64,000 nt of DNA, from assembly GCA_001662655.1 (NCBI GenBank), contig KV460221.1; one strand, 5' to 3'. The position numbers and the translations under genes were made by a program. The DNA comes from Pseudogymnoascus verrucosus. Lineage: Eukaryota. The number at the start of each line of letters is the position of its first letter. Positions within the stretch are counted from its first letter, which is position 1. Below, piece by piece: positions 2,315 to 35,901 of this stretch. The notes below the pieces were generated by a model, which worked only from the letters and a program-made list of their open reading frames with translations, ran no database searches and was not told where the DNA came from.

Positions 2315-3803
2315 ATGAATGCCAACCCGTCACCCTCGGAGTACACGGTGCCAGCTCAAATAAATGGCATAGACGTCATATTGAAACGTGATTTCCAAGT
2401 ATCATCACCATCTACTGGTAAAGGCCTGTACTTGTGCAGCAGTGCCTCCCCTGAAGATGCAATTATCGCTGTCTCTGCCGCACAAGCTGCCTACACACTG
2501 TGGCGGTTTACTTTACCGGGAGCAAGACGAGATATTCTGCTGAGAGCTGCAGCGGCGATGGAGAGCAGGGCACAAGAGTTGGGGCAGTACATGATAGATG
2601 AAACAGGTTCGAGCTCATTTTGGGCCCAAGACTTCAACATTCCCCTCGCTGCCGACATCTTGCGTGACGTTGCAGGGCGTGTCAGCAACATTGTAGGGAT
2701 GGTGCCAACAACGAACGAAGTTGGACGCAGTTCTATTGTATTAAAAGAGCCGTATGGGGTTATTATGGCCGTTGCTCCATGGTATGTCTGGCTGCGCTCG
2801 AATAAAAATGTTCCTAATATACTAACTTTGAGACTACAGGAATGCCCCATACATCTTAGGAGTGCGATCGATTGCGTATGCTATTGCTGCTGGAAATACT
2901 GCAATATTAAAGGGGTCGGAGCTGTCTCCGCGCTGTTTCTGGGCCATCGGTGACATATTCCGTCAAGCCGGACTTCCGCCAGGGGTCCTTAATGTCATAA
3001 TACATAAGCCCAGCGACGCAGCAGCTGTCACAAGAGCTGTGATTCAAGATCCAAGGGTCAAGAAAATCAACTTCACTGGCAGCACATCAGTTGGTCGCAT
3101 AATTTCGGAGCTAGCAGGGCGACACCTAAAGCCCGTGCTATTGGAGCTAGGTGGGAAAGCTCCCGCTGTTGTCTGGAAAGACGCCGACCTCGAGTTAGCA
3201 GCGGAAGAGTGCGCAAAGGGAGCTTTCCTACACAGTGGGCAAGTCTGTATGGCTACAGAGCGGATCGTAGTCCATCGTGATGTTTTTGAAAGGTTTCACA
3301 ACATTTTGGCAGCAGCCACGCATAAATTGTTTCCGAAGGCCAAAGTTCTCATTAACAAAGCTAGCGTGGTGAAAAACAAATGGCTAGTCGAAGATGCTCT
3401 CAGCAAAGGAGCTAGAGTCTTATATGGGGATTTTGACTCTAAGTCAAGCGTGGATATGGGGCCTATTATCCTTGAGGGTGTGAAGGATGGGATGGGAATT
3501 TATCACACCGAGACCTTTGGGCCCGTCGTATTCCTCATTGCGATTGATACAGAGGAAGAAGCCCTTCGTATTGCGAACGATACTGAATATGGTCTTACTT
3601 CTGCTGTGTTCACCGAGGACCTGAGAACTGGGTTGAGATTTGCTAAAGGCATTGAGGCGGGAGCCTGCCACATCAATAGTATGACGGTACATGACGAGTC
3701 CTCACTACCTCACGGTGGCATGAAAGGGAGTGGCTACGGACGTTTTGGTTCTATTGGGCTGGACGAATGGCTTGTGACGAAAACCGTGACTTACAAGGAC
3801 TGA
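2315..3803 (+). CDS. Aryl-aldehyde dehydrogenase (salicylaldehyde/vanillin dehydrogenase-like ALDH)
   Basis: Two exons; intron 2782-2839 (GTATGT..CTAAC..CAG) restores PWNAP. Motifs FTGSTSVG, LELGGKAP, GQVCMATE, ETFGP, PHGGMKGSGYGRF. Confidence 0.93.
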
Positions 3804-3950
3804 AGGCTGTATAGTAATCCTTCCCGCGATGCAATTTTTGAAAGAAGACATCGCAATAGGCCCAGAAATAGCAGAGCAAGTCTGAAAGGAGCCTTGAATT
3901 CATAGAGTATATATTCTGGCTTGCTAAGATTCCACCTTAATAAGTCACTA

Positions 3951-4793
3951 TTAACAGGTATAGCCGCCATCAACTGCCATTGAGATGCCGTTGACCCATA
4001 TTGCATCGTCGCTTTCATAAACGACTGTCACACTGGCAATGTCTTATCCATGTCGCCGAGTCTGAATGGCGGCATTGACGACATCTTCTCCACGGACTCG
4101 TCTCTACTGATTCCTCTGATAGATTCTCTGTCATTGTGGTATCGGTAGCTTTCTTGCAATTGGTAGATTCGACAAAGCGTCCGAAGATCAACTCCGAAAC
4201 AAGTCAAATTACGTTAGAATAGATTTGATACGTTCCAAAAATTCAATGCGGCAGTCAGCGTCAGATTTACCACTAAATACGATGAAGTTCCATACCATCC
4301 AATTAGACCGAGAGTCGATGCAGCGTTGGTGAATCAGACTCTGAGGCCTGCATACTTGCAGGCAAGGAATACCCAAATTGCTTATCCGGTGTCTCCCAGA
4401 TCCAAAAGGCCGCGGTGATCGGTCCGAGCGCTATGCCAGCAGTTTTGAACATCCTGAGACCCATATTAAATGGGATTTCGCGAAGGCTGGACGCAAGCAG
4501 GGACAATTACTCAAACCTCAACTTTACTAAAGTCGTTCACAGCTGTCTGCAACAAACTCTTGAGCACGTTGGGAATCGCGAACATCGACATTGACGCTAA
4601 TGGTTCGACCGCATTTTTCATTGATCATGTTGTGCCGGCTTGTGCCCTTCCTTCTGTAGCAGGCCGTGACAGTGATTCAAATCAGCGGAAAACTAAATAT
4701 GTTCCCTTTGAGCATATCTTAGTTTATTACTCGACCAAGCCTGGATGATGCACCCGTCACAATGGCTATGTTCCCGTTCAGCCGCTGAGACAC
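3951..4793 (-). pseudogene. SDR pseudogene, paralog of the SDR at 29250-30281
   Basis: Remnants SQRLNGNIAIVTGASSRLGR, GIA..IWETPDKQF and WVNGISMAVDGGY match the intact copy. Start codon reads GTG; frameshifts and stops present. Confidence 0.85.
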
Positions 4794-5455: not shown

Positions 5456-6470
5456 CTACTTCCCGTAGTACTGTTTCAGTCTCGGCCATAGCTCTAGAGA
5501 TCCATCAGTGTTAATCTCTTGCAGAAGACCTTTATTCTTGTACTCGAAAGCATCCAAACCATCCGTGTGATAAGTGATGATGCCAGGTCCAGCGTAAGGA
5601 TAGTCACTGCCGTACAACACATGGCCTGGCTTTGCAAACTTTTCCAGAATTGTGAGAACATTCTCGCTGCCAGCGACAGCTGTATCATAGTAAAAGTTTC
5701 GCGCCTCCTCTATGACATCTTCAGTGCAAAAGTCTTTGGACAAGTACGGCAAGACTGTTGCAGGGCGGCCAATGATGTATGGAAGAGTTCCTCCGCCGTG
5801 GGAAAGGATTATCTTGACGTCTGGAAAATCTCGAACAGTTCTTGATGCGAGGAGATCAACGGCCGTACGAGTGGTCTCGAAAGGGTAGTCGATTACCGGT
5901 TGAGGAAGTAACTTGCTGATTAAGTTGGTGTCTACCGGATGAGTTGGGTGGACGAAAACGACAGTCTTTCGCTTTGACACCTCTTCCCACGCGTACCTTA
6001 AATCAGGATGGCCTAGATAATGGTTGTCCGGACCATACCGTGTAAAAAAGGTAACTCCATCGGCCTTAAGCACGTCCAGTGCATATGACAACTCCCGGAG
6101 AGCGAGCTCTTTGTCGAGCAGTGAAGGCAGGGCGGCAAGAAACCCGTACTGGGAGGGGTTGTCATCTCGCATCTTGGCAGCATACTCGTTGGCATCTCGG
6201 GCAAGCTTTGCGGAGGCTTCTCCCTTGAGGATGCACGCTCCAGGGGCCGTAAGTGAGAGAATTGTGGTCGATACACCGTATTTCTTCATGAATTCTCTGT
6301 CGGACTCCTTCGACCACTGCGGGATCTCCCACCCTGAGGGATCTCCGCCTGCACCGAGCACAGCTATTTAAGCTTAGAGGAACCCTCTGTATGAGTTATA
6401 GAGAGAATTGCTCACCATCGCGGTAGAACTGCGGGACGAAGTGGTGATGAACATCCACGCGATTAGCCAT
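5456..6470 (-). CDS. Amidohydrolase-2 family decarboxylase (6-methylsalicylate decarboxylase PatG/YanB-like)
   Basis: Exon 1 MANRVDVHHHFVPQFYRD (HxH metal motif); intron 6364-6415. Exon 2 has VFVHP, DYPFETTR, ILSHGGGTLPY and LYGSDYPY. Confidence 0.9.
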
Positions 6471-6746
6471 TGCGGATGGAAGACAAAAGGGGCGTGAATA
6501 TGTCAAGGCTTTGCGAGAGGGCTGTAATTATCAGTTGAGCTCAATATTTATTTATTATTCAAATGTGTTGTTATTTTGAATGAATCACAATATATATAGA
6601 TTTCTGAGGCTCGTTCTGTTCGCAGGTCCCACGTAATTGAAAATAGAACGCTCTACACCTTGCATGCCGCCGACAAGTCCGCGCCCCACGGGGAAAACGA
6701 TATCCAAGTGCGGGGATGGAGCTATCCAGAAGACCGGAACAGACAC

Positions 6747-6819: not shown

Positions 6820-7775
6820 CTCTCTCATGGTGGCCTAGATGGAAAGCATCCCATTGGCCAGCCCTGGACACCTACGGTCGATTCTAAATTGTGAGCTATC
6901 ATGCAAGACAAAAGTGAGACATGTGGGGATTACCACTAATAAAGTTACGGATTTCTCCCGCTGGCGCAGATCCTTCAATTCGAACCTGATACCTATCTCC
7001 GCAATAGCCAGTTTATGCCTTCCGACTGGACCTGGTGGAATCAGTGGCCTAGCTAGCCTCACCATCCCCACACAAACAATATGTAGTCAGAGATTGGTCC
7101 GTCGTCAATCGCTACAATGGTATTTGAGAACCTAAGCCAGTTCGGTACAGCAGCTAATGGGATATCACGCTGTGGAAGTAGTATTTGTCCATCACAAGAG
7201 GGTATTCTGTTGCTTACGCTCACGAGTAAATGGCTCAAAGCAAAAGTGTAGGCAATCCTAGGCACGCTGACAAAGTGCCGTAGAGTGGTACCTCGGTCCG
7301 GACGGCTGTCGCCAGCCAGTTTGTATGGTAGCAAAAATGCGGGGTAAGTACCTACCCTAACTATTCGTACGTTGCCGCAGAGAAAAAAAAGCAGGAGTAG
7401 AATCGCACCCGTAAGGGCCCATTGAATCAAGTGATAATGCATAGTAGATAAAGGTAGCTAATCTAACTATTCTATAGACTGTAGGCCTCTACCCCTGATC
7501 TAATCTTAGAGTAGGAGTGCTAAAGCTCGCCATCCTGGCCGCGGTCCAGCGGGTCTCATCACCGCGCACAGTGTGAGAATTCAACAAAAAGCTACACAAA
7601 CCCATCGGTTCTCATCACCGCAGCGTGCATATTTGATAGCTTTCACCTGGATATTATCTCTTGTTTTATGGGCTGATTAAGTTCAATCCGCATTTTCTCA
7701 GTCATCAATCATTGATTGTATTTATCAGGTGACATAGACAACCTTTATGGTCAAATCTGCGTGCAGAGATATATA

Positions 7776-8672
7776 TGTTCCGGCCCAACCGTAAGATCTG
7801 CCAGCTCGCGAACGGGCCGGCCCAACCATGAAGTGGCGGGGTTGTGTAGAATAGTATCGTATTGTAGAAAATTCAAATCCTATATCCTACAACTATAGTA
7901 ATTATGGCTACTATTGCATGTATTAATCCATTTCCACACGATATACGTAGTGCTTTTAAGGCCTATATAAGCAGTCCTACTTACTACAATCGAGAGCTAT
8001 AGCAGCTACTCAAAGAGCAAGGGTTTCTATGGTACGCAAGTATACTAAGAAGCATGATATCCAACACTTTGATATTGGATCTATAGTCTCTATAAAGGTC
8101 CCTCGCGAGGATAGAACTTCAACTAATAATAAGAGGCTCTTTGCACGCATTCTAGAAGAGCCTTACCCTCACAGATATCAGGTTCTTACATACTCTAGTA
8201 TTATACAACGCCTTATCCCTACGAAATCACTTGGAGTTGTAGAGCAAGCTCTATGGTCTGATATACTAATACCTCTTTCTACAAAGCAAGTAACGTTAGG
8301 GCTTGCAGCTAGAGAGGCTTCTACAAGCGCACGGGTTGTAATATCATGTCAATGTAAGGGTCAATGTAGTACAAAGAGGTGCCGTTGTTATAAGGAAGCA
8401 AAGGAGTGTAGCGTACACTGTCCTAATGACGACCATGACTGTGGCAATTTATCAGGTCTAGCTACTCGTACAGAAATAGCTCTAGTTGAGAGGCCTCGTT
8501 GGAAACTAGCACGGGCAGACAAAGCAGGAAACGTAGCTATATAGATCAATTGATTACTCCTACTTCTAATTACTCATACTCGCGAGTTGGCCGACCAGCT
8601 CGCGAACGGCCCGGCCCAACCGTAAGATCTGCCAGCTCGCGAGCTGGCAGATCTTACGGTTGGGCCGGAACA
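7776..8672 (+). mobile_element. Non-autonomous Ginger2/TDD-like DNA transposon (internally deleted)
   Basis: 36-bp TIRs TGTTCCGGCCCAACCGTAAGATCTGCCAGCTCGCGA (7776-7811 and 8637-8672), TGT..ACA ends, TATA on both sides. ORF 8029-8544 resembles KRBA2/Ginger2 transposase C-termini (FDIGSIVSIKVPREDR; CQCKGQCSTKRCRC..CSVHC). Confidence 0.75.
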
Positions 8673-8736
8673 TATATTATAGGGAAACAAGACTGGAAAG
8701 TTATATAAGCTTAAGACTATATTTTATCATACCATC

Positions 8737-9660
8737 CTATGGCCTCGCATCACCATGGCCAACGTCTACCGTCGCCGTCAAAACGATACACCTTGTCCGC
8801 CTCTCCACCATGGCCGTAAACAAGTCATCCCCCTTGGGAGTAATGTTTGCTAACATGAAGAGTGTTTTGCCATCATCTCCTCCAAGAGTACAAGCAGTCG
8901 CATGCCCATCAACCTTAATCATGTGCGTAAACATGCCTTTCTCCGGGTCCCTCCTCGCAAATACCTCATCGGCTAGCAAACTCAGCCACATCCCGTTATC
9001 TTTATCCATGCAGAAACCATCTACACTAGAAAATTTCTCAGATTGCGTCCCCCTAAGACGCGCCCATTCAGTTGCGTCCCAGACCTCCTGTCGATTCGTT
9101 AATTCCCCTGATTCAGAGAGGTTGAATTTATTTATCCGGTATGCGAATGTTTCTGCAATATAAAGGGATGTCCCTTCCCGGTCAATCGTAACTCCGTTTG
9201 GGAAGACCAAATTCTCGGCCGCTACCTTAACGCTACGGTCCGTGTCGACCACAAGGAGGCGGCCAGGACATGGTTTTTCTCCATGCAGGACTCGCGCACC
9301 TGTATCGTCGATAAAAACTCGACCGGCGGCGTCAATAACCATATCTCCGCAGTAGCCCGTCATCAAGCTAGACAAGTCGGCAAATAGTTCTATCTGGCCA
9401 TTGTAGTAGCGATAGAGTTTGGCGTCGAACATAGAAGAGTAAATCAGAGAGCCGTCTGGCATGAAGCACATTCCGTTAGGCTGGTTTGGGACCTCGAGAA
9501 AAACCTCCAGCTTTCCAGATAGGTCGAGGGCATAGATCTTCTGCCCAATCATGTCGGCAAAGAAGAGCTTTCCATTGTGCCAGCGGGGTGCTTCACCAAA
9601 ATAGAGGCCGGCTGATTCTGGGACGAGTATCTTAGGGGAAATTTCATGTAGGAGAGCCAT
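8737..9660 (-). CDS. SMP-30/gluconolactonase/LRE family beta-propeller lactonase
   Basis: Intronless 307 aa; FGEAPRW, PNG, FPNGVTI, DGFCMDKDNGMW motifs. Confidence 0.9.
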   Translation of the reverse strand: MALLHEISPKILVPESAGLYFGEAPRWHNGKLFFADMIGQKIYALDLSGKLEVFLEVPNQPNGMCFMPDGSLIYSSMFDAKLYRYYNGQIELFADLSSLMTGYCGDMVIDAAGRVFIDDTGARVLHGEKPCPGRLLVVDTDRSVKVAAENLVFPNGVTIDREGTSLYIAETFAYRINKFNLSESGELTNRQEVWDATEWARLRGTQSEKFSSVDGFCMDKDNGMWLSLLADEVFARRDPEKGMFTHMIKVDGHATACTLGGDDGKTLFMLANITPKGDDLFTAMVERRTRCIVLTATVDVGHGDARP

Positions 9661-10258
9661 TGTTTTTAGAATATGCCGTGTAGAAGAAGATCTAGTCGAG
9701 GGTTTAGATAGTATAGTCTCGCTATAAACTGCCCTGCTTTATGATCTTTATTCTGCATATCTAAACCCCGCACGAAGAGCTTCCGGTTTTCTGGGTTTAC
9801 AGGGGACATTTGTGGCGGCTTATAAATCAATCATAGCCCGAGACTCGGAAACTTTGATAAGTGACCATCGATCCTCGGAACCAGTCCCGAGATCACAACC
9901 CACACCCCTCACTTTCGAAACTGAACCCTGTACGTGCTACGCGCTAACTTTTGCTCGTGGTAAGCTGTAACTTTAGCACAGTTTCAATCCAGAACGCCCT
10001 TACAGGACTGTGCGCAGGGAATTTGGCCTCGTACATCAAAATTTTCCCGAAAGGTATTTTTCTATCCGGGGATGTTCACCCTTACCCAAATAGAAGCGCT
10101 GCCAACCCACGTATTTACAGCAGCTTCTTAGCAGGCTTTACGGGATCCTGGATATCTGTATATCCATACACCAGGACTTACCAACAGACCGTAAAATTCA
10201 AGTTTTTTTTTCAACCCGTATTCGAAGAATTATCGTTCAACGGACACTTTTTCTCATC

Positions 10259-11535: not shown

Positions 11536-13778
11536 TAAGTTAAGTTAAGTTAAGTTTATTTGTAAGCTTCTCGCTATATGCTATAAGCTATCCTAATTGT
11601 TCAAAGTGTTGGCCATCGATTCCGAGCTTAAAAACTCATCAGTCGCAACTGATCGAGCCTGGGATTTCCAGCATTGCTGCCTTCTTCTCCGGCGCCTTCT
11701 CCCCTAGCTGCCCCTCTATCTTCCTTCGCCTTCCATCTCAATTCTTTGCTGTGGTTGAAGTCTTCCGGTCGCTTTCACAAACTCTATAACCGCTTTGATT
11801 GCCATAATATCTGGCTTCCATTGATCCCAGTTGCCATCAATATGCTTTCCAGTTTGTCTCTCGATGCGCCCACTCCATACTCCTAATGGTGCGATACCGT
11901 TTCAGCCTCAGCTCCACATGGACATGCGGCTGAGTCAGCCCTATGAATTCGGGCCATATAATCATTCAATCCAACGTGACCTGTTCTTAGTTGTACTAGG
12001 GTGGCTGTATCCTGTCTATCTAGTATCTTATAGATCTTGGCCATGTGATCCCGCGGCAGAGCCTTGTCGATTGATCGTGTGAATTTACCTCCAAGCGTTC
12101 GTCGAAATAGTAGATCACGCTCTTTCAGAATACGATCTCGAGCTACATGATAGGCTTGTGATTTGAGACGTGGGGCCTGTTCGTCGATCACCTCACATCC
12201 CTTTTGGTAGCTTGTCGCGCCCATTTGTGTGCAAGCTCGTTGCGGTGAATCCCTTCATGGGCTGGCACCCATTGTAGGGTGATTTTCGTACCCTGCGACC
12301 GAAGTTCAGCGGTAATCTCTAGTATCTCCTGAATAAGGTACTGTCCACTCTGCTGCTGTGGTCTTTCCAGAGATTTTATGGCACTTAGACAATCGGTCAG
12401 GATCTTAATCATGCCTTGCCGCGACTGTGGTACTTGGGTACGAAGGATCCTGACAGCCTTCCGGATTGCCCTCAGTTCAGCGGCATATTCGTTATTGTCG
12501 TCCCCCCACGCCGCTGTTTCGTGTACAATGGCCCAGCCACGGTCGTATGCTTTGATTCCCCACACGGATTTGGGGTTGATGATGGGCAGATGTGCTCGAT
12601 GCCACACTACTGCATGCCCAGTAAGACCATTCCTTGCTGAGCCGTCAGTGTATATAGCCGGTACCGTTAGCGACTAAGACTTCCGCGGCTGCCAAGTCTC
12701 TGTCTGCAGTGATGATAATAGCTTCGAAAGCATTGCCAGCTGATGGATGCCTGGATGGAGGCCTGAGGAAAGGCTGGATGACCTCAAGAGTAGTCTTTTT
12801 GGGTCCTCTGACGTCTCTCTCGAATTCTTTAAGCATCCGCCGCAACGGTGACATCATCTTGGTGGTGGTGGGCCGGATGTTGCGCCTCAGCTGCCACCAT
12901 GGGCGAGAAGCTGGGAGCGTATGCAGCCCAATAGCATACCGCATCATCTTCAACCGAAGGCGGATGGTGATTGGAAAGAGCCCAGCTTCAGCTTCCAGGA
13001 TAACCCCAGCCGCCGTCTTGAAAGCGCCAGTCACCACCCGGGCGCCGAGTCGTTGGACACCTTCCAGCATCTTTTCGGCGAACTGTCCTCGATCTTGAAT
13101 CTTATATCATATTGATGCCGCGTAATCCATTTTCGAAGCTACTGTGGCGATATACAATTGCTCCATTGCTACGGGCGGAAGTCCTCGCAGCATGCCTAGA
13201 GAGACGCACTGCTTTGTCGCCCTGCGTGTAACTGCCTGCATGTGTTCCCTCATCCGGAGTTTGCTATCGGATTCACCCCGAGGACCTTCACCGTATTGCT
13301 TGGTGCCACATGTACCCCATTGATTTGTAGTGCTACATGTGGTTGTTGTGCTCTCTCCACACTCTTCGTGAAATGGATGAATTGGGTCTTACTAGCCTCG
13401 AAAGTGGCTCCACTTCGCTTTTCCCATTGTACGATTCTAGGGATGATTTCATTCTGGATTCTGTTTGTGTTTTCTTCTGGTGACGGGCCTGTGACCCAGG
13501 CTGTGTAGTCATCTACGAAGCCCATCTCCCCGCCCTGTAATTTACTATACCATGAAACAGTGTGGCATTGTAAACGATGTACAAGATCGGTGACAGTGGT
13601 GATCCTTGTGGCAGGCCAGGATATGTGATGTTCGATGTTGAAGAACAATAGCTACCAAAGGCTATACATGCATGACGATCACTACAAAAGCTGTAGATCC
13701 AGTGCCTGCAGTCGGTCCTTCAACACTCCTTTATTTACTCCATTGTAGGCTCCTTGCACGTCAAACGTTACCAAGCAA
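11536..13778 (-). mobile_element. 5'-truncated, degenerate Tad1-like LINE retrotransposon
   Basis: RT motifs FDVQGAY and FVDDYTAW; RNase H motifs YTDGS, AELRAI, TDCLSA, WVPAH; Cys/His finger LRTGH..CPCG..ETVSH. 3' tail AATAA plus (ACTTA)n at 11536-11560. Confidence 0.9.
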
Positions 13779-24669: not shown

Positions 24670-26512
24670 TTAGCTTGTCACAAAACCTTTTATCATGCAT
24701 GCCGCAAAGATTGCAGGGGCCGCCCAAAATGCCAATTTCGCGTATTGCGACTCCTCCACGACCCGGCCAATATGCAACTTCTTCTCCTTGTTGGCCATCC
24801 CGGCACCTCTGCCCGTCATATCGTAGGCTGACCAGTCAATGTTCGACGCCCTCTGCTGATACTCAACCACCGTACCGCACCAGTTGTTGGTGACGGTGCC
24901 GTCGGCAGCCTTGTACCAACTGTGACAAGCCGGATTCGCAAAGCTGGTGAGTTTGAGGCGCTCCTGGATATCCTTGTTGTAGTACGCCATTGCTTCCGCC
25001 TTTACCATGATCTCCAACTTCTCACCGCGTATAGAGGCTTTCAATACTGTAGATATCATGGCGCTAATGTACCGCGACTGAGCTTCTACCATCAGAATGA
25101 CAGAGTTGTGTCCCAGATTAGTGTTCGGACCGTACAGCATTGCAAAATTTGGTAGTGACTCGACAGTCATTCCCAGGTACGCTCGCGTACCACTTTGCCA
25201 AATGTTGGCGAGAGAGCGGCCGAATTTGCCATAGATCTTGATTGGGTACATGAACTCCAGTGTGCGAAAGCCTGTAGCGAAAACGATTACATCGACAGGG
25301 TGTTCGGTATTGCCCTCGACAACTATTCCGGATGGTGTGACGTGTTTGATACCATGTGTCTCGAGAGTGACCTGTGGCTGGGTTAGAGTTGACAAGAAGT
25401 CGTCAGACATGATGATCCTCTTGCATCCAGGAGGGTAGCTTGGGATAAGCTTCTCCTGCAATTCTGCATTGTCCGGTAAATGCTCCTCTAGCAATGCCAA
25501 GCACATCTTTTTTAACTCGGCCTTGGCATCTGAGTTTTCAACGACACTGGCTTGATAAATAGTCTCTCGTATATCCATCAATTTTGCTCGATGGGCCTTC
25601 CGAACGCCAGGTATGTAACGGTATGCTTTCCTCCTTATTTCGCTAATCTCGGTGTTGAACTTTGGAACCACCCAATTTGCCGTCCGCTGAAAGACAGTTA
25701 ACGTATTACAGATCTTTGCCAATTCTGGGATAATTTGTGCTGCAGTCGCCCCGTTTCCAATAACTGCGATCTTTTTGCCATCCATTGGATAGCTCCAATC
25801 CCATCGCGCAGAGTGCATGACCTTCCCTTTGAAGGAGTCGAGATTTGGCAGCTCCGGGTATGATGGCACGTTTAGCTGCCCTACTGCAGAGACGAGGTAT
25901 TGTGAGTTAATTGTATACTCCTTTCCGAACTCTGCTTCTTTGTCGCCAGTGACTTGTACTTGTGTCTTCCAGAGGCCTTCTGCATCATCCCAACGCGCTT
26001 CAGAGACGGCAGTATTAAACCTGATTTTCTGGAAAAGCCCCCATTTTTGAGCGACATTGACCAAGTAGTGAAGAATCTCTTCTTGACCAGCATATTCACG
26101 ACTCCAGTCCGGATTTGGGTCGAAAGAAAAGGAGTAGAGGTGGCTCCAGACTGTGGTTGTAGTGAATCAGCTACGTTTCACTACGACCCTACAGTGCAGG
26201 TACAGACCCAAGGGGTCCAAGTAAAAGACAGCTTTGTAGAGAAGGTAAAGGAAAGGGACCATACTGTCACAACAGCATCCTGGATACTTGTTGTCGTTCC
26301 ACGTTCCACCAACTTGACTACCCTTCTCAACGATAATAAAATCATGGGATTTGTTACGCCGAATCAGATCAATGGCAGTGCATATTCCTAGAAGTGTCAG
26401 CTGGTTAGACCTTTTAACATTGTCTTCACTCGGTTTTTTGGTTTAGCTTACCTGATATGCCAGATCCAATGATGAGAACTGGCGTATTGGTGTGAGACCT
26501 CCTTGTTGCCAT
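24670..26512 (-). CDS. Type I Baeyer-Villiger monooxygenase
   Basis: N-terminal IIGSGISG and GGTWNDNKYPGCC; fingerprint FKGKVMHSARW; VIGNGATAAQ, GCKR, ATGF, GPNTNLGHNS. Two 5' introns; hydrophobic C-terminal tail. Confidence 0.92.
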
Positions 26513-27234
26513 GGTTGTTATGAGAAAATATTGTGACAACTTTTTTCGTAAAAAAGGTTATAGGTTAATGGCCTTTTATGTGGAAGGAAAGTCGCAGCCT
26601 GGGGTATTTTGCAATAGCAGTGAGTCTATGGATGATAATTTGGTGGGCCTTGTGTCGTCGACTTAATCAAGTCTGGAGTACCCCATGCAGGGACATCCAT
26701 GAAGCACCACTTTGCCGGGGATTGGACCCCACACAAGCACACACTTTAAAAGTAGACAGCTGCTGCCAGGAACCGAGTCTGACCATAGTCTTCCGTGGCC
26801 CGGCACTACAAAATCGGAAAGAATCCCGTCCAGCAGTTGGTCTTCGGAGCTCACCCGATTCGACCTTCATTACTACCCCGCTTTTGAGCTGCATCTCTAG
26901 ATGCGAAGGCAAATAAATTGGTGTGGAGCACGCACCCTCGGAACTGTAGCCGAACACTCTTCTGATTGATCGGGGAACTGAAAGCTACCGACCTGAAAAT
27001 ACGGTACAGCTCATGTCACCAGGACTACGTTATCCCATGTGATGCGCTAGTCTATTAGTTACAGAGTAATGAAATTTGCAAAGGAGCAGGATAATCTTAT
27101 TTAACGCTCCTTTTGGACTGCAGCTTCAGACATGTCAAGGGCAACAAGGACTAGACTTCATTGCAATTTTTTGGCTTACCTTTGGCAACGTCCCAAGTTC
27201 GTCCTTCTCTACTTGACTGAGTACACATAACAAG

Positions 27235-28198
27235 ATGTCGCACCGTAGCAACGCTCACTACAACTATGTCCCAGACATCTACCGCGACGGTGAGCATCCA
27301 CAGGACACCCGGATTTTATGAAACTAATGCCGGTTTGAAGATAGCGGTCTTGTGGCGGGAGGAGATCCCTGTGTATAGGGGATTCGCCTGTGGTCAGAAG
27401 AGGCCGACGAAGCAAATAACATCTGGAAAGAAGTTTCCGAGAGAAAGGCTGTTGTCATTGTCCACCCCACTCACCCCGTCGACAACAACCTAATTAGGAG
27501 ATTGCTTCCTCGGCCTATCATCGACTACCCATTCGAGACAACTCGCGCAGCTGTTGACTTCATTGCCTCTAGAACAGTGCGCGACTTCCCGGATGTCAAG
27601 ATCATCTTTTCCCGTGGTGATAAAGCTCTCACATACCTCATCAGTCGCCTAGCAACTGTTCTACCTTACTTGTCTAAGGACTTCAATCCAAAAGACGTGC
27701 TTAAGGACGCGAGAAGCTTCTACTATGACACTACAATTTCCGGCAGCGAGAATATACTCCTAGTTGTCACGATCAGGAGTCGACTGACCCCTTTCTGCAG
27801 AACGTGATGTTAGCTGACGGTTATCTAACCGTTAGGTAACGGTTAGCTATCCTCCAGCCATCGCCATGTCAGCGCTATGACACCAGGTCCACCAAGACCC
27901 TACAACTCTCTGCCCTCGCCTAGCGCACACAGACAATATAAGTAGCAAGGAGCTGGCTTCAATAGGAAGCCAGCGGCTAGTTTTGACAGCTACCTATGAA
28001 TACACTATGATCGCCCGTTGAAACCCATGCTGCTTACCTGTCTTGGATCACTGAGTGATATGACTCTCACACTAGTCCTAGAAAGATTTCCTAAGACAGG
28101 CCACCTGTTTACATGATAGTGACTACCTATATGATTTCAACCAACACTGATGGGTCCTTGAGTTATGGCCAAGACTGAAGCAGCACTAAAATAAGTAG
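27235..28198 (+). pseudogene. Amidohydrolase-2 pseudogene, paralog of 5456-6470, interrupted by a solo LTR
   Basis: MSHRSNAHYNYVPDIYRD with the same intron position; VHPTHPVD, IIDYPFETTR, FYYDT, WPRLKQ. Has deletions and stops. Confidence 0.9.
27765..28071. mobile_element. Solo LTR (307 bp) with 5-bp TSD CTAGT
   Basis: TGTCAC..CTCACA ends; CTAGT at 27760-27764 and 28072-28076. Removing it restores ENILLVLERF of the pseudogene. Confidence 0.88.
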
Positions 28199-28702: not shown

Positions 28703-29122
28703 ATGGGTATCAAGTCAGCGGCTGATTATACAGTCCCCAGCATCATCAATGGGCAAGATAAAACTCTCAGAGACTCATTTCAAGTCGTGCCCTCATCTAC
28801 CGGCAAGGGTCTATATAGTTGTAGCAGTGTATGGGCCGCAGAGGCTGAGCAGGTTGTATCTGCGGCGCAAACTGTGAAGCCTGTGTTATTGGAGCTTGGA
28901 GGAAAGGCCAACGGTTTCTGTAATTCGTATCTAGAGCGAGGAAGAAGCCCTTGAGCTTGCGAACGATACCGAGTATGATCTGACTACACCCGTTTTCAAT
29001 GGTATGACAGTACACGATGAGATATCTCTGCCACATGGTGGCATAAAGGCGAGGGATTACGGTAGTTTTGGCTCTGCCGGCTTAGACGAATGGCTAACAA
29101 CGAAGGCGGTCACGTACAGATT
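28703..29122 (+). pseudogene. ALDH pseudogene, deletion-collapsed paralog of 2315-3803
   Basis: Joined blocks YTVP..STGKGLY, KPVLLELGGKA, LANDTEY, MTVHDEISLPHGG, GLDEWLTTKAVTY. Confidence 0.9.
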
Positions 29123-29249: not shown

Positions 29250-30281
29250 TTATTGTGCGGTGTAGCCCCCATCAACTGCCATTGAGACCCCCGTAACCCA
29301 GTTTGCGTCCTCACTCGCAAAGAAGACTGCTACCCTCGCAATGTCTTCTGGTTGCCCAAAGCCTTTCAGCGGATGCATTGCCGATACTTTATTGACGATA
29401 TCTTTGTTCAAGCCTTCAATCATTACACTATGAGTATCTGTGATACGAGAGTTAGCAACATTCAACGCTTCTAAGTTTTGGACTTACAGCCTGGGCAAAT
29501 GGTATTGCAATGAATCCGGTGCGGCGCGAAATCTAATGCAGCCGCTCTAGTTAGATTCACAACACCTCCTTTAGCTGCGGAATATGATGACGTTCCGTAC
29601 GTCCCAACCAAACCCAATATTGAGGCTGTATTGATAATCCATCCCCGGTCGCCGCTCGAGTGCGGTTCTTGCTTGAGCATCTGAGCGCCAGCATACTTGC
29701 AGCCCAGAAATACCCCCCTCAAGTTGACTTGCTGCGTCATGTCGAATTGGTCATCCGGGGTTTCCCAAATTCCCAACGGCCGCGGCGCTTTGGTCTCAAA
29801 CGCAATCCCTGCGTTATTGCACATGCTATGCTGCTTTAGAAGATGAACCTTGGTGCTATGGGAACATAGGGACTCACATATCAACTCTTCCGAATTCCTT
29901 CACAGCTGCTTGCACCATGTCTTGAACGCTTTGTGAATCGCTCACGTCTACTTTTACGGCAAGGCTCCGCACGCCATCCTGCTCCTTAACGAGCTCATGG
30001 GTTGCCTTGCTGGCTTGAATACCAATGGCAGACGGGGCGAGCGGCCTCAGATCAGCGCAGACGACGTGCGCCCCCTCTTGAGCATACCTTAGAGCAATGG
30101 CACGGCCAAGTCCAGAGGATGCTCCTGTGACAATCGCAACCTTGTCTTTAAGTCTCTGAGATGTTTGAGTCCGGCTTCTACTCGCGTAACCTCGTTTTGT
30201 TGACCAAGTACGAGTGCATTGATTCAGAGATTTGGAGGGGCTTTGAAGCAACCTTGATAGACAACTTAATTTGTGAGCCAT
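29250..30281 (-). CDS. Classical SDR oxidoreductase with a probable mitochondrial presequence
   Basis: TGASSGLG, NNAGI, YSAAK, VDGGY; two introns; Arg/Ser-rich N-terminal extension ending KRGYAS. Confidence 0.88.
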
Positions 30282-30905
30282 TGTTTCTGTTTGTTTCGAT
30301 GCTTCGAGTATTGGCTAGAAAGTAGCAGCTGAAGTAATAGAAATTATAAAATAGTGAGGTGGGTAGAAAAAGTAAATACATTTATAGTGAAGTTTATATG
30401 TGAAGCGAAGGTACTTATTTCATCATGCTTCAAAGGCAAACTCATCGTTAAAACTGCTACCTCCACTAATTCTTCATTATAACTGCTACTATTAATTTAT
30501 GCTACAATCTATGTCTTATCGCCGCCTTAGCATCTAAATTTATTTTGTAAAAGTTGTCCTCTGTCTGTTCGGAGGGCGCTGACCACGAGAATGATGTATA
30601 GTGTAAATTACCGACCATGAGCGAAGCGAACAGGAGGGTTGCCGTTAACCCCGTTCCGTACCAGATCCCCACCAAGAACCGGATTCTGGAGTCGTTCCGA
30701 TTCGCCACTTTCCTCCTCGGTGCTGCTTCCGATTCGAGTCCCTCAACCAAATTGCACAGCCAAGCACCTAGCCAGGTACAGTATCGGCTTACCTTACTTA
30801 GCTCAGAGGAGTTGGCGCGAGAGCCACGCTGTGAAATTGAATAATACTTTGTTTGTATATTATTGAATCTGTCTCAAGGTTTTGAAAAATATACATCCAG
30901 CTGAA

Positions 30906-32161
30906 ATGGCATTTCCTGATAGACAAATCCCGACTAAGGCTTTGGTGGTGGAAAAGGCGGGCTCGCCTTTTGTCCTGCAGGACATTACACTGGACGAGGT
31001 TCGTGATGGGGAAGTGCTTGTTGAGATGAAATACACTGGACTGTGTCATACAGTAGGTTCTCTTTACCATTCTTCGGCAAGTTCCAATTGACCACGCGTG
31101 GTAGGATATCGTGGTGCAGCAAGGACTTATGCCAGTTGGAGGTTTCCCCGCTATTCTCGGTCACGAGGGAGCTGGCATCATTCGAAGACTCGGGGGTTCT
31201 ATGAAAGATAGCTCCCTGAAAGTTGGTGACCAAATACTCCTGTCTTTCAGCTCTTGCACAACCTGTTCATTCTGCAGCCAAGGTCGAAATGGTTCTTGTC
31301 CTCATATCACAGCGATCAACTTCACAGGAACTAGACTTTCCGATGGCAGTAACCCGGCAAGTTTGGCTGATGGCACGCCTGTCCGCAGCAAGTTCTTTGG
31401 GCAATCATCCTTTAGCAAGCTGGCTGTTGTTTCCGAAACGTCTGTCGTTAAGTGTGCGTTCAGCAGCGAGGAATTTGCCATCATGGCTCCGATGGGATGT
31501 GGGTACTTTACCGGTGCGGGCACGATTATGAGAGTTTTGAAACCCTCAAAGAAAACGACGGTAGCAATACTGGGTATGGGAGCTGTGGGGCTGAGTGCTT
31601 TGATGGCAGCCAAAGCTATAGGGGTCGAGAGAGTAATAGCTGTCGACATCGTGGATGCCAAATTGGAACTCGCTGTTTCTCTCGGAGCCACCGACGCGCT
31701 CAACTCTGGTAGAATCACCAGCCTCGCAGAAACCTTGAAAGGGCTAGTCAGCGATGGAGTCGATCAGATTGTCGACACAACTGGTATCTGCTCCCTGATA
31801 GAAGAAGGTATCCGTGGTCTAGGCCACGGTGGTGTCTTTGCCCTGGTCGGAGTGGCCCGCCCTAGCCAAAAGGTTTCTGTTGATCCTTTGGACATGCTTC
31901 TCTCGTGCAAACGCCTAATCGGTGTCATCGAGGCATTATCAGACCCCGTCGAGGTGATTCTTAAAATGCGCCCAGTGATAAAAGATCGAACTGCTAACCA
32001 CCAAATAGTTGATTCCTGAGCTTGTGAAATTGCAACGGGAAGGCCTATTTCCCGTTGAAAAATTATCACGGGCATACCCTGTTGCTGATATCGACAAGGC
32101 TATTGCAGATCTCAAGGCAGGTAGAGTTGTAAAGCCAATACTTTCATGGGAATCTGTGTAA
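30906..32161 (+). CDS. Zn-dependent aryl-alcohol dehydrogenase (MDR; benzyl-alcohol dehydrogenase-like)
   Basis: GLCHTD, GHEGAG, CTTCSFC..C, FFGQSSF, PMGCG..TGAG, GMGAVG; two introns. Confidence 0.92.
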
Positions 32162-32511: not shown

Positions 32512-33135
32512 ATCCATTTTATTCACGCTGGTGAACTGATCATGGGCACGGGGTACACTTTTCTCTCCGCTGTGTTTGATTAGGTCAAGCAGCTCGATGC
32601 TGTAGTGGTCTCTGCGGATTACCGTCTAGCCCTGGAAAATCCACCTCCAGCTGGATTTGACGATGCATATGCCGGACTAAATGGACAGCAGATCAAGCAG
32701 TTGCGCTCGGAATTAATCCAAAGAAACTTGTGATAGCGGTGCCTCTACAGGGGGCTGTCTTGGGGCGACTATCGCACTCGAAATACGGGACCACGGCAGA
32801 CCTGATCTATATGGCCAGATGCTGATCTACCCCATGGTAGATGATCAGTGAATTACAACCTCAACTTAGTAATTCGCGTCTTATGGAACATGGACAGGTA
32901 TAGCTTCGACTATTTCATGGGATCTAGTCCTTCCAGGCCGCCGAGGGACTGGTGGTGTCGTACTTATGAGGGCCCGGGACGGGCTACCGCCCTGGGTAGA
33001 CATCCGCCTACTTATATTGAGGTGGGGTCTGGGAAGCCTTTTGGGATGAGTGTGTAGCATACACCTGCAGGCTGTGTGAGCACTTTCACATGTGGCCGGG
33101 GTTGTTGCATGCTTCGGAGATTTTCAATCCACGAA
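32512..33135 (+). pseudogene. Esterase pseudogene, paralog of 16990-17961
   Basis: HFIHAGELIMGTGYTFLSAVFD*VKQLDAVVVSADYRLALENPPPAGFDDAY, YPMVDD, PPTYIEV, WPGLLHASEIF. Has stops and frameshifts. Confidence 0.88.
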
Positions 33136-33179
33136 CGTATAGCCTAACAGGACTTAAAGTAGTATTCTTAAGAATGGTT

Positions 33180-35901
33180 TTAAGAAAAAATATTTCCCCA
33201 GCCAATATCATCCAAGTTCCACGGAGGCTGCAATCCCGAATTTTGAGACAGCATGTCTTGGAGCTGAAGGTCGCTAAAGAGGAACTCGCTATTTACCACG
33301 CCTCGGCCGTTGCTTGTTTCATAAAGGCTGGTCTGCAGGTAATCTGAAATGTTACCTTCTGTAGAGTTAAAATCTGACTTTTGCGTCATCTGAGTGGGCG
33401 ATGCCCGAAGATCTGTTATATATTAGCACAAATCGGAAGAGGCAGAGGACTACTCAACGAATCGAGGTGGGATAGATTTGTTGATGCATGCTGTACAGCG
33501 TCTTGGCGCATTGATTAGCTGCATCGTTATGCAAACCCATTCTTTCCAAAGCTCTCTGGCACTGGTCCCATGACTTTTGAACGGTGCTAGGTACTCTAGA
33601 CGCAAGGACTGTAGGGCAGACCTCGGCCAAAATAAGCACCATCGCAGATGAAAATAAATCTAGGAGAAACATTTAGCAGTTGGGTTTCTGAAATATAACG
33701 TGAGCTTACAGAATACATTATACCACCAAGCATCAGTTGCGGCGGTTTGCGACGCATGGTCAACGATATCTATCAGCTCTTCTGCAGCTCCTACGCAAGC
33801 TTCTGCGCAGCGTTGAGCGAAATGCCCGTACAACATATTACTTGTCGCATGCTGCCGTTCACGGTCGCTTGAACCTTTCGCTGCGACTCCTAGCTTTGAT
33901 TCTACACATAACTGGTTTAATATAGGTCGATATAAAAGAAGCTTTAGGTGGACGAATCTACATAGTGTGTTAACCATCATTTTGGAGGATTAATGTACTA
34001 GTAATAGAGACTAACCTTGCATGAAGGACATTGCGTTGTCGGGTGACAATCTCGGTCGACCGGTGTGCTTGATCTCGCCAGCCCCAATAGAGTTGCTCAG
34101 GCACGTTACGTTCAAAATGAGATAGGTTATTGTCGAGATCGATTATGACATCAAAAAAACAAAATCTAGGTTGCTGGCCGATCTTATTACGACCACCTAA
34201 GTGACTTAAGGGTTTGTAGACATCTGTGAGGACCTCGGCAAGGATTTTATTAACTTTTAGAGCCTGCACGAAGAAGGAAGTAACAGGCACGTTATCTGCT
34301 GAGGATGCAGATAGCGAGATGAGGGAGTCGTCATTGCTGGCAATTGGCAGCGGTATATCGGACTGTCCAGTAGTAATAGATGGTCTTCCAAGAGTCATGC
34401 TCACAACACTGCAGCATAAATTTAGCTTTGGATTCGCATCCACGAATGGAAGAGCAAGGTTCACGAAAAGGAAACTTACGTATCGAGCATTATACAACCG
34501 TACCATGCACGCCGCCTCATCTCTACTTCAATAGGAGAGCGATTTTCGTTTCCGTCGTCAATATAGAGCCCAATTCCTTGTGCCACCCTGTAGGCTAGTC
34601 CAACCATATTCCAGCATCGGTCAGGATAGTGCGTACTTTGAAGAAACTGCGCCATGATCAGAAGGGCCTGTACGAGAGCTAGGTCTCCTTCATCCAAAAT
34701 GTCGATATGTAGAAAGTACTTTCCACGGAGAAAGAATGTACTTGTGAGCGCTTCTCTCTCTGCTGAGGGTAGGTCTGAAAATTGGCAGCTAAGGGCAAAC
34801 ACAGCGTTCAGAGCACAAGAGAAAGTGGCAGGTCCGCAGTTTGAGCCTCCTAGGCCAACAGCTTCTGTCGAAACGTGCCTATCATCGACTGCACTATCGC
34901 GAGCCCAGATTTGTTCGTAGCTTTCAAGAAAGCTCGGCTTGTGTATAAACGGATATAAACAGTGTACTCTAGCCCAATATAGGTCTAACAAGTGATCTGC
35001 TAGAGCTCGAGGAGGTAAAGTAAGGGCTTCAAGTCTCGAGCTGAGTCCCTCGCCCAAGAATGAGGATAATCCATGGACTGCAGCTCTAGACTGCTTGGTT
35101 GCTGGTAGTTTTGGGTAGACAAAGTCAGATTCTCCCGTGGACGCCCGAAGGGTCTCTCGAACTTGGTGTTGAAAAGACACCGCGGATGAGCTCCCGTAAA
35201 ACAGCTCTTGTGCAGCAGTCACGCTGTCAGAGATATGCGAGGCCGCCCCCATTGCACTAACAGAGCTGCAGGCCACGTGTCCGTCTTGTTCTGGGAATGG
35301 GCGGCCGTCTGGCCCCTGTAGTCGGTCGTCAAAGGGGCCCAATGGGCTTACGGTTGATGTTGGCCGGTCAGACGGATGGGCCTCTGCCTCGGCGGATAGG
35401 ATGTCAAGGTTCCTGTTCGAAATGGGGGGGACCGACGGCACTTCATCCGCTCGGTGAAGAGCCGCCAGCTCGCTGTGGCGTACGGCATGTGCTATCCTAG
35501 AAGGACTTGCCTGATCACTTTCAAGCATGCGAATTCGGTCCTCCAGGTACCGCACATGTCTGATTAAAAATCAATGAGCTCAAGATCAACCCTCAGAGCA
35601 TGGGTGTAACTATACATACTCTCTATCGGCTGAGGCACGAGAAGAGTCCGAGACGTACTTGCATCGGTCTCCAGCCTTGTGCTTTCGTTTGCAATTGCCG
35701 CAAGTCGGTTTCTGCCCATCACATCGAATCTTCTTCTCTCTACAAGCATCACATGCGATGGCAATCTTGTGACGTTTGGGGGGCCGCGCTCGTCGTTGTG
35801 TGGCCTGCTTTACATCTGTTAGTTACGGGCAGACGCCGGCTGTCAGCGCGAAGAATTCGAGACAATACATTTTGCGGTGCTCCCTGACCCTGAACTTCCA
35901 T
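33180..35901 (-). CDS. Zn2Cys6 transcription factor (TF-B), paralog of TF-A
   Basis: ACDACREKKIRCDGQKPTCGNC..C; same exon layout as TF-A; shared LPPRALADHLLDLYW, QFLQSTHYPDRCWNMVGLA and LQPPWNLDD. Confidence 0.88.

What the first reader, a model, noticed from the sequence alone, without database searches (positions are those of the whole stretch)
2315..35901. Putative uncharacterised aromatic-catabolism gene cluster with two funnels toward a phenol hydroxylase
Seen: aryl-alcohol dehydrogenase, aryl-aldehyde dehydrogenase, amidohydrolase-2 decarboxylase, phenol 2-monooxygenase, SDR, BVMO, esterase, lactonase, a PTH11-like receptor and two Zn2Cys6 factors. No PKS, NRPS, transporter or ring-cleavage dioxygenase is present in the window. 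Established chemistry of these families allows two routes: aryl alcohol to aldehyde to acid to phenol, and secondary alcohol (SDR) to aryl ketone to aryl ester (BVMO) to phenol (esterase). Both would end at phenol hydroxylation. Inference: an upper pathway for plant- or lignin-derived phenolics or competitor polyketides. The substrate cannot be read from sequence.
Basis: partly seen in the sequence, partly recalled or inferred. Interest (0 to 1): 0.72.

Follow-up and report, generated by a model that had tools for sequence, protein, structure and literature searches.

The report
Fungal cluster degrading phenolic lactones
A soil fungus carries a compact set of eight enzyme genes, apparently under one control signal, whose chemistry fits a single chain breaking mellein-type phenolic lactones down to a common, digestible aromatic acid; this route is predicted from sequence and untested.

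Summary
The cluster is real: 8 intact enzymes, a PTH11-like receptor and two Zn2Cys6 factors, with no PKS match on the 505-kb contig. It is a mosaic of an old tandem duplication with six gene relics. Its non-coding DNA is enriched in CGG-N8-CCG, 13 sites in 14.9 kb versus 15 in 139 kb, which points to one regulon. The 'two funnels to a phenol hydroxylase' reading is doubtful. The hydroxylase keeps both carboxylate anchors of 3-hydroxybenzoate 4-hydroxylase (His104, Lys214), which the genome's true phenol-hydroxylase-type paralogue lacks. The decarboxylase is of the 6-methylsalicylate type. Best reading (inferred, about 45%): one linear route using each enzyme once. Mellein-type lactone → 6-(2-hydroxypropyl)salicylate → 3-(2-hydroxypropyl)phenol → arylacetone → benzyl acetate → alcohol → aldehyde → 3-hydroxybenzoate → protocatechuate. 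The decarboxylase–hydroxylase pair recurs in Microthyrium and one actinobacterial lineage. The whole cluster was found nowhere else, and no expression or activity data were available.

The parts
2315..3803 (+). Aryl-aldehyde dehydrogenase, 476 aa, 1 intron
   Evidence: nearest solved: salicylaldehyde DH E 1.6e-112, vanillin DH E 2e-108 (95)
3957..4790 (-). Relic paralogue of SDR2 (stops, frameshifts)
   Evidence: letters agree with source-run contigs
5456..6470 (-). Amidohydrolase-2, 6-methylsalicylate-decarboxylase (PatG) type, 320 aa; H8/H10, H157, H207, R218, D272
7771..8677 (.). Multicopy transposon scrap bounded by a 47-nt inverted repeat
   Evidence: depth 3-13x the flanks
8737..9660 (-). 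SMP-30/gluconolactonase-family lactonase, 307 aa; only match in the genome
10259..11218 (+). Broken SDR (frameshift near start, internal stops)
   Evidence: letters agree with source-run contigs
11883..13651 (-). LINE-like retrotransposon remnant (RNase H)
14257..14358 (-). Scrap of an esterase paralogue
14784..16035 (-). PTH11-like fungal rhodopsin-domain receptor, 281 aa, 6 introns, short tail
16990..17961 (+). HSL-family esterase, 323 aa (HGGG, GxSxG)
18482..21350 (-). Zn2Cys6 transcription factor TF1, 827 aa
21836..23822 (-). Group A flavin hydroxylase, 587 aa, with 3-hydroxybenzoate-4-hydroxylase anchors D46, H104, K214, Y238
24670..26512 (-). Type I Baeyer-Villiger monooxygenase, 554 aa (fingerprint at 168, Arg306)
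27235..27768 (+). Relic paralogue of the decarboxylase
28715..29120 (+). Relic paralogue of the ALDH (large internal loss)
29250..30281 (-). Intact SDR2, 309 aa; basic, acid-free 42-aa N-terminal extension
   Evidence: nearest solved for exon 2: 2-(R)-hydroxypropyl-CoM DH, E 1e-18 (96)
30906..32161 (+). Zn-dependent aryl-alcohol dehydrogenase, 382 aa
   Evidence: benzyl alcohol DH 1f8f E 2e-48, second of 3 hits
32512..33152 (+). Relic paralogue of the esterase (5 stops in the main match)
33180..35901 (-). Zn2Cys6 factor TF2, 791 aa; 57% identical to TF1, same six intron phases
1589..1981 (.). Four CGG-N8-CCG sites upstream of the ALDH (1589, 1637, 1692, 1968)
9876..9889 (.). CGG-N8-CCG site between the lactonase and the broken SDR
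24393..24474 (.). Two CGG-N8-CCG sites upstream of the hydroxylase
26815..26952 (.). Two CGG-N8-CCG sites between the BVMO and the decarboxylase relic
30718..30731 (.). CGG-N8-CCG site between SDR2 and the alcohol dehydrogenase

Best explanation
One TF-controlled upper catabolic pathway that takes an 8-hydroxy-(dihydro)isocoumarin such as mellein, or a related 6-(2-oxygenated alkyl)salicylate or resorcylate, to a ring-cleavage substrate, using each of the eight intact enzymes once. (1) The lactonase opens the lactone to 2-hydroxy-6-(2-hydroxypropyl)benzoate. (2) The 6-MSA-type decarboxylase gives 3-(2-hydroxypropyl)phenol. (3) The SDR gives 3-hydroxyphenylacetone. (4) The BVMO gives 3-hydroxybenzyl acetate. 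(5) The esterase gives 3-hydroxybenzyl alcohol. (6) The alcohol dehydrogenase and the ALDH give 3-hydroxybenzoate. (8) The MobA-type hydroxylase gives protocatechuate, cleaved by dioxygenases elsewhere in the genome. TF1/TF2 act through CGG-N8-CCG. Shown: genes, families, residues, motif enrichment, duplication. Established family chemistry (recalled unless a paper is cited): each reaction type. Inferred: the order, the substrate, and that the motif is the TF1/TF2 site.
For: Hydroxylase: nearer to 3-hydroxybenzoate hydroxylase than to phenol hydroxylase in both exons. It keeps His104/Lys214, described as carboxylate salt-bridge anchors (PMC3546652 passages); own-genome PHHY-type paralogue has Q/R and a second has E/R. 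Decarboxylase: named relatives are auto-labelled 6-methylsalicylate decarboxylase, as are the three Atlas clusters shown, scores 0.96-0.98; catalytic residues are conserved. ALDH, alcohol dehydrogenase, SDR and esterase have nearest solved relatives of fitting chemistry. CGG-N8-CCG lies upstream of ALDH, lactonase, hydroxylase, BVMO and SDR2/alcohol dehydrogenase, so both 'funnels' share it. Decarboxylase and same-subfamily hydroxylase are four accession numbers apart on one Microthyrium scaffold. In 2 of 80 prokaryote loci the decarboxylase relative lies with a hydroxylase keeping D/H/K/Y plus P450 and ferredoxin, one also with ALDH and ADHs: the layout expected for 6-methylsalicylate → m-cresol → 3-hydroxybenzoate. 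The fungal cluster lacks the P450 but has lactonase, SDR, BVMO and esterase, which reach the same alcohol. The genome has intradiol dioxygenase matches at 9 places.
Against: The route was assembled after the fact; no substrate is shown. His/Lys are subfamily-wide (110 of 120 sequences each), and I found no characterised fungal member. Lys alone is not diagnostic: TvMNX3 and PhhA have it too. The 'decarboxylase' labels are automatic; the nearest solved relative is only 28% identical. The full cluster was not found elsewhere: 1 of 4 species pairs linked for decarboxylase/hydroxylase, 0 of 6 for ALDH pairs (25, 27, 29, 31, read by eye from top-120 lists). The Microthyrium hydroxylase is only 54% identical and groups with Venturia/Tothia. 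The two bacterial loci are one lineage (88% identical; 2 close matches in 158 genomes), and 0 of 22 further loci had this hydroxylase type while 5 had other flavin hydroxylases. BVMO, lactonase, alcohol dehydrogenase and hydroxylase have no relic twin, so they may be later additions. The decarboxylase and esterase promoters have only the 7-spacer variant, which is not significant after correction. SDR2 has a presequence-like N-terminus and may be mitochondrial.
Confidence: 0.45

Rival explanations
1. Core route only: 6-methylsalicylate or orsellinate (for example freed from depsides by the esterase) → m-cresol or orcinol → methyl hydroxylation by a P450 encoded elsewhere → alcohol → aldehyde → 3-hydroxybenzoate or 3,5-dihydroxybenzoate → protocatechuate or gallate. 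BVMO, SDR and lactonase handle side substrates.
For: Same hydroxylase and decarboxylase evidence; matches the Geodermatophilaceae layout directly. A lichen-derived Burkholderia plasmid carries the decarboxylase relative beside a two-component hydroxylase and a dioxygenase-type gene.
Against: No P450 among the Pfam hits of the window ORFs. Leaves three enzymes, two or three of them with motif-bearing promoters, unexplained.
Confidence: 0.2
2. One reading: two parallel funnels (alcohol → aldehyde → acid → phenol; secondary alcohol → aryl ketone → aryl ester → phenol) ending at a phenol or hydroquinone hydroxylase, as in the 4-ethylphenol route of Aspergillus fumigatus.
For: Uses all families. 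The 4-hydroxyphenyl acetate → hydroquinone route is described for A. fumigatus (PMC3727088 passages). Three actinobacterial loci place the decarboxylase before an MhpA-like hydroxylase. The shared motif fits it equally.
Against: His104 instead of the Gln/Glu of phenol and hydroquinone hydroxylases. The A. terreus member of the subfamily is down 17-fold on salicylate (log2FC -4.1, supplement row); it is a homologue, not an orthologue, so this is weak. The lactonase is left without a role.
Confidence: 0.13
3. Hydroxylase before decarboxylase: gentisyl (or 2,3-dihydroxybenzyl) alcohol → aldehyde → acid → 4-hydroxylation to a trihydroxybenzoate → decarboxylation to hydroxyquinol or pyrogallol.
For: Fits the carboxylate anchors and the usual need for an ortho-hydroxyl (recalled). 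A locus with dioxygenase and Fe-ADH (maleylacetate-reductase-like) genes exists on C15.
Against: Leaves lactonase, SDR, BVMO and esterase unused. The bacterial loci with P450 point to decarboxylation first.
Confidence: 0.1
4. An accidental pile-up of decaying modules near a contig end, no longer one pathway.
For: Six relics and two transposon remnants; helicase/OrsD-type elements on both sides; no conservation found in other Pseudogymnoascus among the top hits.
Against: Exactly one intact copy of each duplicated enzyme survives. Both TFs are under purifying selection (dN 0.29, dS about 2.2). The motif is enriched.
Confidence: 0.07
5. Tailoring genes for a polyketide made by a remote PKS.
For: PatG-type decarboxylases are best known from biosynthetic clusters (recalled), and some hydroxylase relatives carry the automatic name terD.
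Against: No ketosynthase match on this 505-kb contig among 31. The bacterial relatives inspected lie in catabolic or non-biosynthetic settings.
Confidence: 0.05

Closest known systems
3-hydroxybenzoate 4-hydroxylase MobA/MHBH, Comamonas testosteroni (PDB 2dkh)
   Same: Best solved match for both exons; Asp75, His135, Lys247 and Tyr271 all kept as D46, H104, K214, Y238.
   Different: Fungal, intron-containing; activity untested.
Phenol hydroxylase PHHY (1pn0/1foh), hydroquinone hydroxylase TvMNX3 and A. niger PhhA clade
   Same: Same clade and domain layout; Asp/Tyr pair kept (PMC12915361 passages). Linking 8r2u to TvMNX3 is recalled.
   Different: PHHY has Gln/Arg at the two anchor positions, as does the genome's C1 paralogue. 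PhhA's residue at the His position was not seen.
6-methylsalicylate decarboxylase PatG/YanB/OrsB type
   Same: Automatic name of most named relatives and of the three Atlas clusters shown; amidohydrolase-2 fold and metal ligands (84, 62).
   Different: Known members sit beside PKS genes (recalled); here there is no PKS and the setting is catabolic. No characterised member was available for direct alignment.
Geodermatophilaceae P450-ferredoxin-MobA-decarboxylase loci (L078, L082; uncharacterised)
   Same: Same decarboxylase/hydroxylase pair, plus ALDH and ADH in L082.
   Different: P450 and ferredoxin in place of lactonase, SDR, BVMO and esterase; MarR regulators.
4-ethylphenol/4-hydroxyacetophenone route (A. 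fumigatus; Pseudomonas fluorescens ACB)
   Same: Ketone → Baeyer-Villiger ester → hydrolysis logic (PMC3727088 passages).
   Different: Ends in hydroquinone via an aryl ester and uses no decarboxylase or lactonase.
Fungal phenylpropanoid-degradation cluster class anchored on phenol 2-monooxygenase (10.1101/184242)
   Same: Synthase-free catabolic cluster with this anchor family (part 1 and passages read, 56, 59).

Membership tests
3-hydroxybenzoate 4-hydroxylase (MHBH/MobA) | Group A FAD hydroxylase with C-terminal dimerisation domain | tested here: met
   PF01494 + PF07976 (12)
3-hydroxybenzoate 4-hydroxylase (MHBH/MobA) | His135 and Lys247 carboxylate anchors, Asp75/Tyr271 | tested here: met
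   H104, K214, D46, Y238
3-hydroxybenzoate 4-hydroxylase (MHBH/MobA) | Converts 3-hydroxybenzoate to protocatechuate | not testable with these tools
   needs an assay
Phenol 2-monooxygenase (PHHY type) | Gln/Arg at the two pocket positions, no carboxylate anchor | tested here: not met
   His/Lys here; Gln/Arg in 1foh/1pn0 and in the C1 paralogue
PatG-type hydroxybenzoate decarboxylase | Amidohydrolase-2 barrel with HxH, His, His, Arg, Asp | tested here: met
PatG-type hydroxybenzoate decarboxylase | Closer to characterised PatG/OrsB than to other amidohydrolase-2 enzymes | tested here: inconclusive
   only automatic names; no characterised sequence on hand; the Cladonia enzyme has the ExH motif of another subgroup
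PatG-type hydroxybenzoate decarboxylase | Decarboxylates an ortho-hydroxybenzoate | not testable with these tools
   needs an assay
Type I Baeyer-Villiger monooxygenase | FxGxxxHxxxW fingerprint, N-terminal Rossmann motif, catalytic Arg | tested here: met
   BVMOs are the nearest solved relatives
Type I Baeyer-Villiger monooxygenase | Substrate class (arylacetone versus acetophenone) | tested here: inconclusive
   cyclohexanone and phenylacetone monooxygenases score alike, E about 1e-41 (22); Atlas names generic
Fungal catabolic gene cluster | No backbone synthase linked | tested here: met
   0 of 31 ketosynthase matches on the contig (45); NRPS checked only through Pfam of window ORFs
Fungal catabolic gene cluster | Shared regulatory site | tested here: met
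   motif found and tested on the same DNA
Fungal catabolic gene cluster | Gene set conserved across species | tested here: inconclusive
   one two-gene link in Microthyrium; no fungal genome collection to search
Fungal catabolic gene cluster | Co-induction by substrate | not testable with these tools
   needs RNA-seq under induction
Patulin/yanuthone-type biosynthetic cluster | 6-MSA synthase in the cluster | tested here: not met

The most novel reading that the evidence does not exclude
A complete fungal pathway and regulon for degrading mellein-type dihydroisocoumarins (widespread fungal and plant antimicrobials; recalled) to protocatechuate. It redeploys a biosynthetic-type decarboxylase for catabolism, shortens the side chain with a Baeyer-Villiger/esterase pair in place of a P450, ends in a fungal 3-hydroxybenzoate 4-hydroxylase, and was assembled by reciprocal loss from a duplicated cluster. 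Six exact phrases for mellein or isocoumarin degradation found 0 papers, and none of the 30 listed of 244 papers in a looser search mentioned mellein.
Probability: 0.35. Interest if true: 0.82.

Novelty: new variant of a known kind. Interest (0 to 1): 0.62.

Why it matters
If right, it supplies genes for a degradation route I could not find in the searched literature and makes it testable with eight small enzyme assays. It also offers a candidate for the fungal 3-hydroxybenzoate → protocatechuate step. A 2025 review says A. niger performs that step, and no enzyme for it appeared in the passages and table rows I saw; the candidate subfamily is widespread in Pezizomycotina. More generally, 'phenol 2-monooxygenase' and '6-MSA decarboxylase' labels can mislead about order and role. 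Even if the substrate is wrong, this is a clear case of a duplicated cluster resolved by complementary gene loss with a readable TF site.

Tried and rejected
Metagenome scan with the decarboxylase: 14 loci, 12 of them 33-39% identical, no second fungal cluster. Sequencing-run search: no RNA holder listed; only the probable source sample. TF1 against 50%-identity representatives: best hits 72% and 68% are unnamed short-contig records; the named ones among 10 looked up (44-49%) did not tie to the species carrying the decarboxylase or hydroxylase relatives, e.g. Rhinocladiella Z518_07523 versus Z518_10780. The database model P0121 fuses hydroxylase and TF1. Rejected as a probable annotation error: the hydroxylase has its own stop, TF1 has its own start and zinc-cluster exons, and TF2 shows the same exon plan; not tested with RNA. 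RIP as cause of the relics: dinucleotide indices do not show it, except perhaps for the 7.8-8.7 kb scrap. Separate origin of the second block: rejected for the decarboxylase relic and TF2, whose best matches are their window twins; undecided for the ALDH relic, whose twin was not among its 16 best matches. Horizontal transfer: the hydroxylase is sister to a Mollisia protein (support 1.0, 36) and the decarboxylase clade is patchy, but no topology test was run, so no claim is made. CCGAGG enrichment (6 of 7 promoters versus 7 of 84 windows) is marginal and was not pursued. Family and phylum searches for more bacterial operons gave no new MobA-type pair. Earlier-findings look-ups returned nothing. 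Paper searches found no description of this gene set.

Full report
Setting. The window is G000:C16:62001-126000 of a 30.2-Mb fungal assembly. Database proteins identical to the window's are labelled Pseudogymnoascus verrucosus. The cluster lies 64-98 kb from the contig end, between two OrsD/RecQ-helicase-type elements. Left of it are an amidase, an S9 peptidase and an MFS transporter; far right lies ARG5,6 (12).

Observation. Eleven genes were modelled with GT-AG introns and open frames: ALDH 2315-3803(+), amidohydrolase-2 6470-5456(-), lactonase 9660-8737(-), PTH11-like 16035-14784(-), esterase 16990-17961(+), TF1 21350-18482(-), hydroxylase 23822-21836(-), BVMO 26512-24670(-), SDR2 30281-29250(-), alcohol dehydrogenase 30906-32161(+) and TF2 35901-33180(-). 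Pfam confirms every family (12). Three models match database proteins exactly and two more ORFs are on record. None of 31 ketosynthase matches is on this contig (45). Intradiol dioxygenase matches occur at 9 other places (12 matches).

Hidden structure. Self-comparison shows five paired segments at 67-79% nucleotide identity. Block A keeps ALDH, decarboxylase, esterase and TF1 and has an SDR relic. Block B keeps SDR2 and TF2 and has relics of decarboxylase, ALDH and esterase. TF1 and TF2 share 57% identity and six intron phases, with dS about 2.2 (near saturation) and dN 0.29. The decarboxylase relic's best match is its window twin (70%); the ALDH relic is too decayed to assign. So an old duplication was resolved to one intact copy of each enzyme. 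A further, unrelated SDR at 10259 is broken, and source-run contigs agree letter for letter over both SDR relics.

Co-regulation. An open dyad search of 7 promoter regions against 84 background windows put TCGG-N8-CCGA and its variants first among 4-mer pairs (4 of 7 versus 0 of 84). Restricted to 240 Zn2Cys6-type classes, CGG-N8-CCG stood out: 13 sites in 14,947 non-coding bases versus 15 in 139,079, p=6e-7, corrected 1.5e-4; no other spacer survived correction. The strict form occurs 6 times in the window, all between 1.5 and 31 kb, against 0.71 in shuffles and 522 in the genome, which predicts about 0.6 in 36 kb. Sites precede ALDH, lactonase, hydroxylase, BVMO and SDR2/alcohol dehydrogenase; three more lie in or beside relics. 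The decarboxylase and esterase promoters carry only 7-spacer variants. Discovery and test used the same DNA, and binding by TF1/TF2 is inferred.

The hydroxylase. Both exons match Comamonas 3-hydroxybenzoate hydroxylase better than Trichosporon phenol hydroxylase (290 versus 268 bits, 98 versus 86). A review states that this enzyme adds His135 and Lys247 as salt-bridge anchors for the substrate carboxylate (PMC3546652, passages). The window has His104 and Lys214 there. The genome's C1 paralogue, which lies beside an intradiol dioxygenase, has Gln/Arg like phenol hydroxylase; the C13 paralogue has Glu/Arg; the C12 and C75 paralogues have His/Lys (90). His and Lys each occur in 110 of 120 aligned subfamily sequences. 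Limits: the Lys is also found in TvMNX3 and PhhA (PMC12915361, passages) and in HxnV, which has Ile for His and acts on a non-acid (PMC9304392, passages). The His is therefore the telling residue, and I found no assayed fungal His/Lys member. The A. terreus member ATEG_05011 falls 17-fold on salicylate (PMC7842363, passages and one supplement table, 76, 77, 79).

The other enzymes. The decarboxylase has the amidohydrolase-2 fold (pLDDT 94.6; nearest 2f6k and dihydroxybenzoate decarboxylases) with conserved ligands, and automatic names say 6-methylsalicylate decarboxylase. The Cladonia orsellinate decarboxylase (PMC12967840, parts 1 and 3 read, 63, 69) has a different metal motif and does not settle the substrate. 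ALDH is nearest salicylaldehyde and vanillin dehydrogenases. The alcohol dehydrogenase is near benzyl alcohol dehydrogenase. SDR2 exon 2 is nearest 2-(R)-hydroxypropyl-CoM dehydrogenase, a family-level hint only. The esterase is HSL-type, the BVMO is a true type I enzyme of unresolved class, and the lactonase is SMP-30-type.

Mechanism. If the hydroxylase wants 3-hydroxybenzoate, the ALDH product is not decarboxylated, and a 6-alkylsalicylate decarboxylase must act first, giving a meta-substituted phenol. Without a P450, the side chain must arrive already oxygenated. A 2-hydroxypropyl chain locked as a lactone, as in mellein, needs exactly lactonase, decarboxylase, SDR, BVMO, esterase, alcohol dehydrogenase, ALDH and hydroxylase to reach protocatechuate, and these are the eight intact enzymes. 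The reaction types are established chemistry (recalled); the order and substrate are inference. Hydroxylated melleins, isocoumarins and 2-oxoalkyl depside acids would enter the same chain.

Elsewhere. In Microthyrium microscopicum the decarboxylase relative (68%) and a same-subfamily hydroxylase are KAF2671831.1 and KAF2671835.1 on one scaffold. This was 1 of 4 species shared by the two top-120 lists; 0 of 6 pairs involving the ALDH were linked. No other Pseudogymnoascus is named in the decarboxylase top 120, and other Pseudogymnoascus ALDHs and hydroxylases are only 63-71% identical over the exons searched, so the cluster looks accessory. Of 80 prokaryote loci (the best of 504), 2 from Geodermatophilaceae place the decarboxylase relative by a 42%-identical hydroxylase with D/H/K/Y, a P450 and a ferredoxin; one adds ALDH and ADHs. 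They are one lineage. Of 22 further loci none had this hydroxylase. Both layouts are catabolic and fit the decarboxylase as the entry step.

Literature. Ten searches found no description of this gene set, and six exact phrases on mellein or isocoumarin degradation found 0 papers. The library lacks most subscription journals. Also read: PMC12388069 (passages), PMC3727088 (passages), PMC13653839 (passages and one section) and 10.1101/184242 (part 1 and passages, 56, 59). The supplements of the last, which list cluster models, were closed and could contain an overlapping model.

Verdict. A real, probably co-regulated, accessory catabolic cluster. A single mellein-type lactone → 3-hydroxybenzoate → protocatechuate route is the most economical reading (0.45), with a simpler 6-MSA/orsellinate route next (0.2). 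It is a new variant of a known kind. Interest is 0.62, and 0.82 if the lactone route holds.

Noticed in passing
window 36900-45060: Broken element on the minus strand with three OrsD (PF12013) domains and a helicase, strong strand skew, a 25-nt tandem array of telomere-like units at the left end and three 19-nt repeats at the right. Similar OrsD-like and helicase sequence lies at the contig start (L006, L044), so the cluster sits between two such elements.
   Followed up: partly
window 1-245 and L001:8719-9999: Amidase-signature gene divergent from the ALDH; the four motif sites lie nearer the ALDH. Membership undecided.
   Followed up: partly
L008 (G000:C75:115001-125000): Hydroxylase paralogue (His/Lys kept) beside a TF 36-38% identical to TF1/TF2, a SnoaL-like gene and a GMC oxidoreductase: an older TF-hydroxylase unit (19, 90, 108).
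   Followed up: partly
L037-L038 (G000:C15:255001-275000): Separate catabolic cluster: Fe-ADH (maleylacetate-reductase-like), FAD monooxygenase, P450, aryl-alcohol dehydrogenase paralogue and intradiol dioxygenase.
   Followed up: no
L034:1716-4289 (G000:C74): Divergent pair of decarboxylase paralogues (54% and 46%) at a contig end, one with a stop inside the match.
   Followed up: no
window 18482-23822 (P0121): The public annotation fuses the hydroxylase to TF1 and drops the zinc cluster; probably an error.
   Followed up: partly
window 33180-33182: TF2 ends four codons earlier than TF1; probably harmless.
   Followed up: no
L078, L082: Uncharacterised Geodermatophilaceae loci (P450, ferredoxin, MobA-type hydroxylase, PatG-like decarboxylase, MarR) that look like a 6-methylsalicylate degradation operon.
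   Followed up: partly
L164 (Burkholderia plasmid, lichen isolate): Two decarboxylase relatives beside a two-component hydroxylase, FAA hydrolase and VOC-family gene; 3 of 29 plasmid records list lichen as source and a fourth lists Usnea. Possibly orsellinate/orcinol catabolism.
   Followed up: no
window 46250-51300: Secreted DUF7029/DUF7223 protein with a Thr/Pro-rich tail, and an unannotated 336-aa ORF on the minus strand (9, 12).
   Followed up: no
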